Source of the DNA: Escherichia coli
GTDB lineage: Bacteria > Pseudomonadota > Gammaproteobacteria > Enterobacterales > Enterobacteriaceae
DNA length: 64,000 nucleotides
NCBI RefSeq assembly: GCF_024502345.1
Contig: NZ_JALDNN010000001.1
Strand: one strand, 5' to 3'
Made by a program: the position numbers and the translations under genes. Positions 17,314-18,234 of the stretch are shown here, piece by piece; position 1 is the first letter of the stretch, and each line of letters opens with the position of its first letter. The notes below the pieces were generated by a model that had not been told where the DNA came from, did no database searches, and worked only from the letters and a program-made list of their open reading frames with translations.

Positions 17314-18234
17314 TTACCCCTTGCCTTTTACACTGCTGATAAAGGTGGAACGGGCAGATGTCGATCCCAGGCGTTCAGCTTCATCAAGCAGTTTTAACGC
17401 CTTATCAACATCACCTTTCGCGACAGCGTTTTTGATCGCGGTATTAAAATAACTTTCCGTGTCGTTGAGCATCGGCTCGCTTTTCTTCACCGGTGCCGGA
17501 GCGGGTGCAGCCACAGCTGGTGCCGCCGTGTTGCCTACCGTAACCGGAGCTGGAGCGGAAGAACCAAATAAAGGCCCGACCAACACGCTGGAGCTGGAGT
17601 TCGTTTTCACTTTCAGTTTCAGTAAGCCATCGCTGGTATGACGAGCAACCGGATCGGGAATATCCGGGATCGAGTTACCGACGCCTTTGGCATAGGCTTT
17701 AGCCGGGTCGAGCAGTTGGGTCGTCTGCTGGAGATCTTTTTCCGTGGTAAAGACCAGAACATAAAGTTTTTGCTGCCCCAACGCCGGTGTCAGGCGCATA
17801 ACGCCTTCCAGCCGATCTGCACTCATCACGCCTGGTTCCTGGTAGGTGAAATAACTGCTGGGGAAGAAGGCTGATGGGGTCATGTTCTGATCAAGAATCA
17901 GCACGTTCGGCGCAAATACGCTGGTTTGTTTGTTCACTTCGCTGGTCAGCGTCAGGGTCAGTTCGCCAATGTTTGCCGGGACGCTGTACGCAGCAACCGG
18001 ACCACTGATGCCAGCAACGTTCAGTTGTTGGCCGCCAGTCGCCAGTTGGGTGGTCTGGGTTTTAGATTGATCGACCGGTGTCCAGGTGAGTTGTTGCAGC
18101 GCGGCAGATGGAATGGCTGGCGCGTCGCTGGTGTTTTGCGGTACGTAGTTAACATCGGCAAGGCTGATTCCAGGCGCGCTTGCCAGCAACCCTGCTGATA
18201 AACAGAGGGCGATGAGACTTTTATTCATTTTCAT
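17314..18234 (-). CDS. malM: Maltose regulon periplasmic protein MalM
   Basis: MKMNKSLIALCLSAGLLASAPGISLADVNYVPQNTSDAPAIP...; signal peptide; last gene of malK-lamB-malM. Confidence 0.9.
   Translation of the reverse strand: MKMNKSLIALCLSAGLLASAPGISLADVNYVPQNTSDAPAIPSAALQQLTWTPVDQSKTQTTQLATGGQQLNVAGISGPVAAYSVPANIGELTLTLTSEVNKQTSVFAPNVLILDQNMTPSAFFPSSYFTYQEPGVMSADRLEGVMRLTPALGQQKLYVLVFTTEKDLQQTTQLLDPAKAYAKGVGNSIPDIPDPVARHTSDGLLKLKVKTNSSSSVLVGPLFGSSAPAPVTVGNTAAPAVAAPAPAPVKKSEPMLNDTESYFNTAIKNAVAKGDVDKALKLLDEAERLGSTSARSTFISSVKGKG

What the first reader, a model, noticed from the sequence alone, without database searches (positions are those of the whole stretch)
17314..18234. malM lies downstream of the IS1 insertion in the same operon, so polar loss of expression is likely
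malK, lamB and malM are co-oriented on the minus strand with a single MalT-dependent promoter region upstream of malK, and the only obvious terminator follows malM. The 768 bp IS1 in antisense orientation between the promoter and malM is expected to reduce or abolish malM transcription unless an outward-reading promoter in IS1 compensates.
Basis: inference. Interest (0 to 1): 0.35.

Follow-up and report, generated by a model that had tools for sequence, protein, structure and literature searches.

The report
IS1 in lamB likely silences malM
A mobile element (IS1) recently landed inside the maltoporin gene lamB of an otherwise ordinary E. coli maltose operon, so the intact downstream gene malM is probably cut off from its maltose-inducible promoter. 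This is a textbook polar insertion effect, with the small twist that the insertion also created a plausible weak new promoter pointing at malM.

Summary
On the minus strand lie malK (21781-20666), lamB split after codon 162 by a complete 768-bp IS1 (19341-20108, transposase antisense, 9-bp target duplication), a REP-rich 242-bp spacer, intact malM (18234-17314) and the only canonical terminator (17281-17262 plus T7).

A sister E. coli assembly is 100% identical over 14 kb of flanks but has the empty site. None of 5,426 complete E. coli genomes has this junction. The insertion is therefore real, recent and strain-specific.

lamB translation stops 81 nt into IS1, leaving about 1.8 kb of untranslated RNA before malM. 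No credible internal malM promoter was found. Loss of MalT-driven malM expression by Rho-type polarity is the best-supported expectation. It would also affect the ProQ-binding malM-3' RNA, reported to be processed from this mRNA.

The IS1 left end supplies an outward -35 (TTGGCA) 16 bp from TAAACT in lamB. This is the best promoter-like site on that strand, in the top 1.4% of possible IS1 junctions. Its transcript would also be untranslated for about 1.1 kb.

Nothing was measured here. The finding is an ordinary new instance of a known phenomenon, of low interest.

The parts
21782..22145 (.). Divergent malEp-malKp control region (MalT/CRP-dependent); the only known promoter for malK-lamB-malM.
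   Evidence: 408 of 411 aligned positions are identical to K-12, and the malK-proximal ~150 bp are identical. RegulonDB lists one transcription unit, as quoted in PMC4402597.
20666..21781 (-). malK, intact, 371 aa.
   Evidence: ORF and translation. The exact protein is found on 230 contigs named MalK.
20109..20594 (-). lamB 5' fragment: 162 codons including the signal peptide. It reads on into IS1 to give a 188-aa fusion product.
   Evidence: Translation. Pfam LamB positions 1-138 of 378.
20028..20030 (-). Premature UGA stop of the lamB'-IS1 fusion frame, 81 nt inside IS1. Ribosomes leave the operon mRNA here.
20109..20117 (.). Target-site duplication, promoter-proximal copy (GGCTTCGGT in operon sense).
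   Evidence: The sister locus L012 has a single copy.
19341..20108 (+). Complete IS1 (IS1A type, 768 bp) with its transposase genes antisense to the mal operon. IRL is at 19341 and faces malM; IRR is at 20108 and faces malK.
   Evidence: It is the only IS copy in the window. It is 100% identical to an annotated IS1A element, with 99.9% copies in many genomes. insA is at 19396-19671 and insB' at 19590-20093. The A6C motif is at IS1 position 307.
19332..19340 (.). Target-site duplication, promoter-distal copy.
19327..19354 (-). Candidate hybrid promoter created by the insertion. The -35 TTGGCA lies in IS1 IRL (19354-19349), then a 16-bp spacer, then the -10 TAAACT in lamB (19332-19327). It reads toward malM; the inferred start is near 19320.
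   Evidence: It is one of only 3 hits in the consensus scan of 5.2 kb. It scores 11.5 bits with my own PWM, and only 9 of 127,948 sites in the window score as high. The uninterrupted allele scores at most 6.7 bits at this place. Only 1.4% of all possible IRL junctions in the ancestral window would score as high. The outward -35 in the IS1 inverted repeat is documented (PMC8764528; PMC9330008). No evidence of activity was obtained.
18477..19340 (-). lamB 3' fragment: 287 codons plus the stop, with no usable translation start.
   Evidence: Translation. No Shine-Dalgarno-preceded ORF in the lamB frame. C-rich, G-poor 78-nt windows occur at 19415-19234, 18986-18896 and 18765-18688, but only at background frequency.
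18342..18465 (-). Cluster of three REP (BIME) palindromes after lamB. They act as an mRNA stabiliser and processing boundary, not as a terminator.
   Evidence: Rfam naRNA4 (a REP-derived family) matches at 18394-18464 with 78 bits. The region folds at -69.6 kcal/mol, z = -6.5. The role is quoted from PMC4402597. Some alleles have one REP and a 150-bp spacer.
18301..18316 (-). Conserved GC hairpin (AGGGGC-GAAA-GCCCCT) upstream of malM with no T-run after it. Its function is unknown.
   Evidence: Invariant in four alleles. Fold.
17314..18234 (-). [quoted passage not shown] Its own Shine-Dalgarno sequence GAGG is at 18245-18242.
   Evidence: The exact protein is found on 464 contigs, and every place examined had an intact lamB. 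Function unknown according to PMC11745164.
17255..17313 (-). malM 3' UTR with the operon's intrinsic terminator (stem 17281-17262, then U7). This is the malM-3' ProQ-binding RNA.
   Evidence: 100% identical to K-12. Terminator. ProQ binding and origin by processing are reported in PMC7367173 and PMC7618764.

Best explanation
This is a recent, strain-specific IS1 transposition into codon 162/163 of lamB in a standard E. coli malK-lamB-malM operon.

Shown from the sequence: MalT/CRP-activated transcripts start upstream of malK. Ribosomes translating lamB' meet a UGA 81 nt inside IS1. The next 1,793 nt (the rest of IS1, the 3' part of lamB and the REP spacer) have no credible translation start. 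malM has its own ribosome-binding site but no convincing promoter of its own.

Inferred: RNA polymerase, now uncoupled from ribosomes, is released by Rho within this stretch. This is the classical strong polarity of IS1 in either orientation. Maltose-inducible synthesis of MalM therefore drops sharply, while malK remains inducible. The same applies to the malM-3' UTR RNA, which is made by processing of the operon mRNA and binds ProQ.

Also inferred: the insertion juxtaposes the outward -35 of IS1 IRL with a TAAACT -10 in lamB. This may give weak, MalT-independent transcription toward malM. That RNA too is untranslated for about 1.1 kb, its -35 overlaps the IS1 pIRL promoter and InsA-binding region, and its spacer (16 bp) and -10 (4 of 6) are suboptimal. 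I expect at most a low constitutive level, not compensation.

The phenotypic weight is small. lamB itself is already inactivated, and MalM has no known function.
For: Anatomy and target duplication.

Empty site in a sister genome that is 100% identical. The junction is absent from 5,426 complete E. coli genomes.

Control region equals K-12. The only canonical terminator follows malM. No restart ORF in the untranslated stretch.

No promoter-like site between IS1 and malM scores above 8.0 bits on the operon strand, and none lies in the 242-bp spacer at the scan threshold.

Single transcription unit, with a REP processing boundary: PMC4402597. malM-3' is a processing product of the mRNA: PMC7367173.

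Hybrid promoter candidate: with literature support for the outward -35 in the IS1 inverted repeat (PMC8764528; PMC9330008).

The polarity of IS1 in both orientations and its relief by rho mutations is established knowledge that I recall (Jordan, Saedler and Starlinger 1968; Fiandt, Szybalski and Malamy 1972; Reyes, Gottesman and Adhya). I could not retrieve it here.
Against: There are no expression data.

C-rich, G-poor windows (candidate Rho-loading sites) occur in the untranslated stretch only at background frequency: 9 of 132 windows there against 6.1% on that strand overall. The sequence therefore neither proves nor particularly favours Rho loading.

The hybrid promoter candidate is good by sequence: 11.5 bits, against 8.4 bits for IS1's own pIRL.

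My PWM uses consensus frequencies from memory.

malT lies outside the window, so whether the operon is inducible at all in this strain is unknown.
Confidence: 0.75

Rival explanations
1. Compensation by the insertion-created hybrid promoter. The IRL -35 (TTGGCA), a 16-bp spacer and a lamB -10 (TAAACT) drive enough MalT-independent transcription through the lamB 3' fragment to keep MalM and malM-3' RNA near or above normal levels, now constitutively.
For: It is the best promoter-like site on the operon strand between malK and malM, at 11.5 bits (99.993rd percentile of the window). It exists only because of the insertion, since the empty allele scores at most 6.7 bits. Only 1.4% of possible junctions score as well. 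IS1 hybrid promoters are documented and can give large effects, such as about 7 log2 for afaA (PMC8764528; the Prentki 1986 entry in PMC9330008 Table 1).
Against: The -10 matches 4 of 6 positions, there is no TG extension, and the spacer is 16 bp. The transcript would have about 1.1 kb of untranslated leader before malM with no restart ORF, so it is itself exposed to Rho. From recalled knowledge, the -35 overlaps pIRL and the InsA-binding inverted repeat. A 1.4% tail event is not rare enough to imply selection. A fully induced MalT/CRP promoter is strong, so matching it is unlikely.
Confidence: 0.15
2. malM has an independent promoter in the lamB 3' end or the lamB-malM spacer, so its expression does not depend on read-through from malKp and the IS1 is irrelevant to it.
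For: The last ~105 bp before malM, including a GC hairpin, are invariant across four divergent alleles. Weak promoter-like sites exist at 18982 (8.0 bits), 18321 (6.9 bits) and 18276 (6.6 bits).
Against: The curated transcription unit is malK-lamB-malM, and malM is described as cleaved from lamB on one mRNA (PMC4402597). malM behaves as part of the MalT iModulon (PMC11745164). None of the weak sites reaches the consensus-scan threshold. From memory, the original genetics (Gilson et al. 1986) placed malM as the last gene of the malK-lamB operon.
Confidence: 0.07
3. The insertion is an assembly artefact or a minority variant, and the real chromosome has intact lamB.
For: A sister assembly with identical flanks has intact lamB. 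The predicted truncated products are absent from the 15-billion-protein collection.
Against: A perfect 9-bp target duplication, complete 768-bp element and exact junctions are the signature of true IS1 transposition. Misassembly across a repeat would not create a duplication. Their absence from protein collections is expected if annotators flag them as pseudogenes.
Confidence: 0.03

Closest known systems
Classical strongly polar IS1 insertion mutations in the gal and lac operons
   Same: A 768-bp IS1 inside a promoter-proximal gene of a polycistronic operon. Translation stops prematurely in the element and the distal genes lie behind a long untranslated stretch. The effect is expected in either orientation.
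   Different: Here the operon is malK-lamB-malM, and the single distal gene has no known function. Polarity is inferred, not measured. The junction also happens to form a promoter-like hybrid.
IS1 hybrid (fusion) promoters (Prentki et al. 1986 bla activation; acrEF; afaA in E. coli ST131, PMC8764528)
   Same: An outward -35 hexamer 8 bp from the IS1 end is combined with a -10-like hexamer in the flanking target DNA at 16-bp spacing.
   Different: In the known cases the insertion lies just upstream of the activated gene. Here the target gene starts about 1.1 kb downstream, behind an untranslated gene fragment and REP hairpins, and activity is untested.
lamB loss-of-function mutants (lambda-resistant, dextrin-negative)
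   Same: Disruption of maltoporin with malK left intact. It is the kind of lesion selected by LamB-dependent phages.
   Different: No phenotype or selective history is known for this strain. The question here concerns only the downstream gene.
3'-UTR-derived ProQ/Hfq-binding RNAs made by mRNA processing (malM-3', PMC7367173)
   Same: The malM 3' UTR and terminator are 100% identical to the K-12 sequence used as a model ProQ ligand.
   Different: In this strain the supply of its parent mRNA is probably cut by the upstream IS1. This consequence has not been examined in the papers I read.

Membership tests
IS1 family insertion sequence (IS1A type) | About 768 bp with terminal inverted repeats (GGTGATGCTGCCAACTTACTGAT / GGTAATGACTCCAACTTATTGAT). 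| tested here: met
   The element at 19341-20108 is 768 bp and both ends were read directly. It is 100% identical to an annotated IS1A element, with 99.9% copies in many genomes.
IS1 family insertion sequence (IS1A type) | insA (zinc ribbon plus HTH) and an overlapping insB' (DDE) with an A6C -1 frameshift motif. | tested here: met
   PF03811 and PF12759 in the 91-aa ORF and PF03400 in the 167-aa ORF. AAAAAAC at IS1 position 307.
IS1 family insertion sequence (IS1A type) | A 9-bp (sometimes 8-bp) target-site duplication. | tested here: met
   GGCTTCGGT lies on both sides, and there is a single copy in the empty site of L012.
malK-lamB-malM operon of the E. coli maltose regulon | Gene order malK, lamB, malM, divergent from malEFG. 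| tested here: met
malK-lamB-malM operon of the E. coli maltose regulon | MalT/CRP-dependent malKp control region. | tested here: met
   The sequence is identical to K-12 in the malK-proximal part, with 3 differences in 411 bp overall. MalT binding itself was not tested.
malK-lamB-malM operon of the E. coli maltose regulon | A single transcript that ends at a terminator after malM. | tested here: inconclusive
   The only canonical terminator is after malM, and the literature gives a single transcription unit. The transcript in this strain was not observable.
MalM family (Pfam PF07148) | A match to the family profile above the curated cut-off, plus an N-terminal signal peptide. | tested here: met
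   174.7 bits against a cut-off of 26. 303 of 306 residues are identical to K-12 MalM, including the signal sequence region.
Rho-dependent translational polarity | A premature stop followed by a long untranslated stretch ahead of the distal gene. | tested here: met
   UGA at 20030-20028, then 1,793 nt without a Shine-Dalgarno-preceded restart.
Rho-dependent translational polarity | Rho-loading (rut) sites in the exposed RNA. | tested here: inconclusive
   Three C-rich, G-poor patches were found, but at background frequency.
Rho-dependent translational polarity | Reduced distal expression that is relieved by rho mutation or bicyclomycin. | not testable with these tools
   This needs an experiment.
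IS1-derived hybrid promoter | An outward -35 in the IS1 inverted repeat, correctly spaced from a -10 in the flanking DNA. | tested here: met
   TTGGCA, 16 bp, TAAACT at 19354-19327.
IS1-derived hybrid promoter | Transcription initiation at the junction. | not testable with these tools
   This needs 5'-end mapping or a reporter fusion.

The most novel reading that the evidence does not exclude
The insertion rewires the end of the operon rather than simply silencing it. The IS1-IRL/lamB hybrid promoter would turn malM and the malM-3' ProQ-binding RNA from maltose-induced into low-level, constitutive, MalT-independent products, possibly modulated by InsA binding at IRL. The mal regulon's contribution to the ProQ RNA pool would then be uncoupled from carbon source.
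Probability: 0.1. Interest if true: 0.3.

Novelty: new member of a known kind. Interest (0 to 1): 0.12.

Why it matters
It matters little. It is a correct and careful annotation point: in this strain malM should not be assumed to be expressed just because its reading frame is intact. The same holds for the malM-3' ProQ-binding RNA.

It also offers a ready-made natural pair. This strain and a sister that is 100% identical over the 14 kb flanking the site differ there only by the IS1. The pair could be used to measure IS1 polarity, hybrid-promoter activity and any MalM phenotype.

It does not reveal a new mechanism, gene family or system.

Tried and rejected
1. Shigella origin. I suspected it because lamB carries an IS1 and the best E. 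coli identity is only 98.4-99.1%. I rejected it because the 64-kb window has a single IS copy and no other repeat longer than 150 bp. Its rare YjbI allele and flanks match E. coli assemblies exactly.

2. Ancestral E. coli B (Mal-, lambda-resistant). I considered this from memory. I found no support in the literature search, and no complete E. coli genome has the junction.

3. Exact look-ups of the truncated LamB products (188 aa and 248 aa), to find other carriers of the insertion. Neither is in the collection.

4. Open-access text on IS1 polarity, Rho, and the Gilson 1986 malM genetics. Nothing usable was found. Prentki 1986 and Olliver 2005 are not held. Those points rest on recalled knowledge and on secondary citations.

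5. Hawkey 2020, on Shigella IS-mediated gene loss. It does not mention lamB or maltose.

6. A weak terminator-like hairpin inside IS1 on the operon strand (19481-19467). It has 5 pairs, a poor T-tract and z = -1.7, so I did not treat it as a terminator.

7. The IRR end facing malK. Its hybrid score is only 4.2 bits, so I make no case for an antisense promoter into malK.

8. Scans of the metagenome and GTDB collections for the junction. I did not run them. They are costly, and the answer would not change the verdict.

Full report
**What is there.** The window is ordinary E. coli core chromosome. It runs dnaB, plsB, ubiCA, yjbI, malM, lamB, malK, then malEFG, xylE, pgi, lysC, metH, aceBAK and an rrn operon.

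On the minus strand:
- malK is 21781-20666.
- lamB starts at 20594.
- malM is 18234-17314, exactly the coordinates in the finding.

malM encodes a 306-aa protein. It matches Pfam MalM at 174.7 bits and is 303/306 identical to K-12 MalM. The exact sequence occurs on 464 contigs in public data, and every place I examined had an intact lamB upstream.

**The insertion.** lamB is split after codon 162 by a 768-bp element at 19341-20108.
- It has the IS1 terminal repeats, insA and insB' on the plus strand (Pfam) and the A6C frameshift motif.
- It is 100% identical to an annotated IS1A element, with 99.9% copies in many genomes.
- It is the only IS copy in the 64 kb.
- It is flanked by a perfect 9-bp duplication, GGCTTCGGT.

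Locus L012, from assembly GCA_050022275.1, is 100.000% identical to the window over 9,341 bp on one side and 4,754 bp on the other. It carries the empty site with one copy of the 9-mer and a 446-aa lamB. None of 5,426 complete E. coli genomes has the junction. So the insertion is a genuine, very recent, strain-level transposition.

**Operon logic.**
- The malEp-malKp control region differs from K-12 at 3 of 411 positions, none in the malK-proximal part.
- The only canonical intrinsic terminator on the operon strand is the 8-bp GC-rich stem plus T7 directly after malM.
- The 242-bp lamB-malM spacer holds three REP palindromes. Rfam naRNA4 matches there and the region folds at -69.6 kcal/mol.
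- PMC4402597 describes malK-lamB-malM as one RegulonDB transcription unit. It says the REP element protects lamB after cleavage from malM.
- malM has its own GAGG Shine-Dalgarno sequence and lies far from lamB. It therefore depends on upstream events only through transcript supply.

**Why polarity is expected.**
- The lamB' reading frame runs into IS1 and stops at UGA 20030-20028.
- From there to the malM ATG are 1,793 nt with no Shine-Dalgarno-preceded ORF of any length in the lamB frame.
- This is the standard substrate for Rho-dependent polarity.
- IS1 is classically strongly polar in both orientations. That is established knowledge which I recall but could not retrieve from the paper library.
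- C-rich, G-poor 78-nt windows exist at 19415-19234, 18986-18896 and 18765-18688. Their frequency is no higher than background for that strand: 6.8% against 6.1%. I count this as inconclusive rather than supportive.
- No promoter-like site in the lamB 3' fragment or the spacer exceeds 8.0 bits with my PWM, and none passes the consensus scan.

**The caveat that turned out to be real.**
- One exists, at the IS1 left end (IRL).
- The site is TTGGCA (19354-19349, in IRL), a 16-bp spacer, then TAAACT (19332-19327, in lamB).
- With a simple sigma-70 PWM built from consensus frequencies I recalled, it scores 11.5 bits. Only 9 of 127,948 positions in the whole window score as high.
- IS1's own pIRL scores 8.4 bits. 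The uninterrupted allele scores at most 6.7 bits at this place.
- I simulated IRL insertion at every position of the ancestral window. Only 1.4% of junctions do as well.
- The literature confirms that the IS1 inverted repeat carries an outward -35 that forms hybrid promoters when a -10 is suitably placed (PMC8764528; PMC9330008 Table 1 citing Prentki 1986).

I nevertheless expect weak output at malM, for four reasons:
- The -10 matches only 4 of 6 positions, there is no TG extension, and the spacer is 16 bp.
- The -35 overlaps pIRL and the InsA-binding repeat (recalled).
- The resulting RNA would be untranslated for about 1.1 kb and so exposed to Rho like the read-through transcript.
- A fully induced MalT/CRP promoter is hard to match.

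The malM 3' UTR and terminator (17313-17255) are 100% identical to K-12. This RNA, malM-3', is a model high-affinity ProQ ligand and is described as a processing product of the mRNA rather than an independent transcript (PMC7367173; also PMC7618764). If the operon transcript does not reach malM, this RNA is lost too.

**Verdict.**
- Best explanation (about 0.75): loss or strong reduction of maltose-inducible malM and malM-3' expression by IS1 polarity, with at most low constitutive transcription from the hybrid promoter.
- Rivals: real compensation by the hybrid promoter (about 0.15), an unrecognised malM promoter (about 0.07), and an assembly artefact (about 0.03).
- MalM has no known function (PMC11745164) and lamB is already inactivated, so the added phenotypic meaning is small.
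- This is a sound but ordinary inference: a new instance of a textbook phenomenon. Interest is 0.12.
- The most novel reading not excluded is promoter rewiring of malM and malM-3' to constitutive expression. I give it a probability of about 0.1 and modest interest if true.

Noticed in passing
window 15505-17085 (minus strand): yjbI (a SopA-family pentapeptide-repeat protein) is an intact 526-aa ORF here, with a rare allele seen on only 13 contigs. In K-12 it is annotated as a pseudogene, and in strain GDSC2BY4G it is itself split by an IS1.
   Followed up: partly
window 20028-20594 (minus strand): The truncated lamB encodes a 188-aa product with an intact signal peptide, 137 mature LamB residues and 26 IS1-derived residues. 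Under maltose induction this would be an exported, unfoldable porin fragment and a possible source of envelope stress.
   Followed up: no
window 18394-18464 and 23400-23470 (minus strand): Rfam naRNA4 (CssrE, a REP-derived nucleoid-associated RNA family) matches above the gathering score at the REP clusters after lamB and between malE and malF. These look like ordinary BIME/REP elements, not dedicated sRNA genes.
   Followed up: partly
L002-L010, the lamB-malM spacer (for example L002 4760-5000 against L004 4851-5000): Two length classes of the lamB-malM intergenic region exist among E. coli strains with the identical MalM protein: 242 bp with three REPs, and 150 bp with one REP. The ~105 bp next to malM, including a GC hairpin at window 18301-18316, are invariant.
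   Followed up: partly
L005 769-1958 and L006 767-1958: In two other E. coli genomes with the same MalM allele, malE is called as two ORFs (190+217 aa and 190+189 aa). This suggests independent malE pseudogenes or sequencing frameshifts in the malB region.
   Followed up: no
window 1-64000: No complete RefSeq E. coli genome is closer than about 99.1% to any third of the window. The best matches differ between segments: O39:NM F8704-2 and E110019 on the left, VE-V11-M and E. coli C/WG5 in the middle, and FDAARGOS_944 on the right. This suggests a sparsely sampled or mosaic lineage. Draft assemblies GCA_050022275.1 and GCA_050032215.1 are essentially identical to it locally.
   Followed up: partly
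window 19348-19375 (plus strand): IS1's own promoter pIRL (CTGCCA, 16 bp, TATGAT; 8.4 bits) overlaps back-to-back with the outward TTGGCA -35. The two candidate promoters would therefore compete for RNA polymerase, and both would be occluded by InsA.
   Followed up: no
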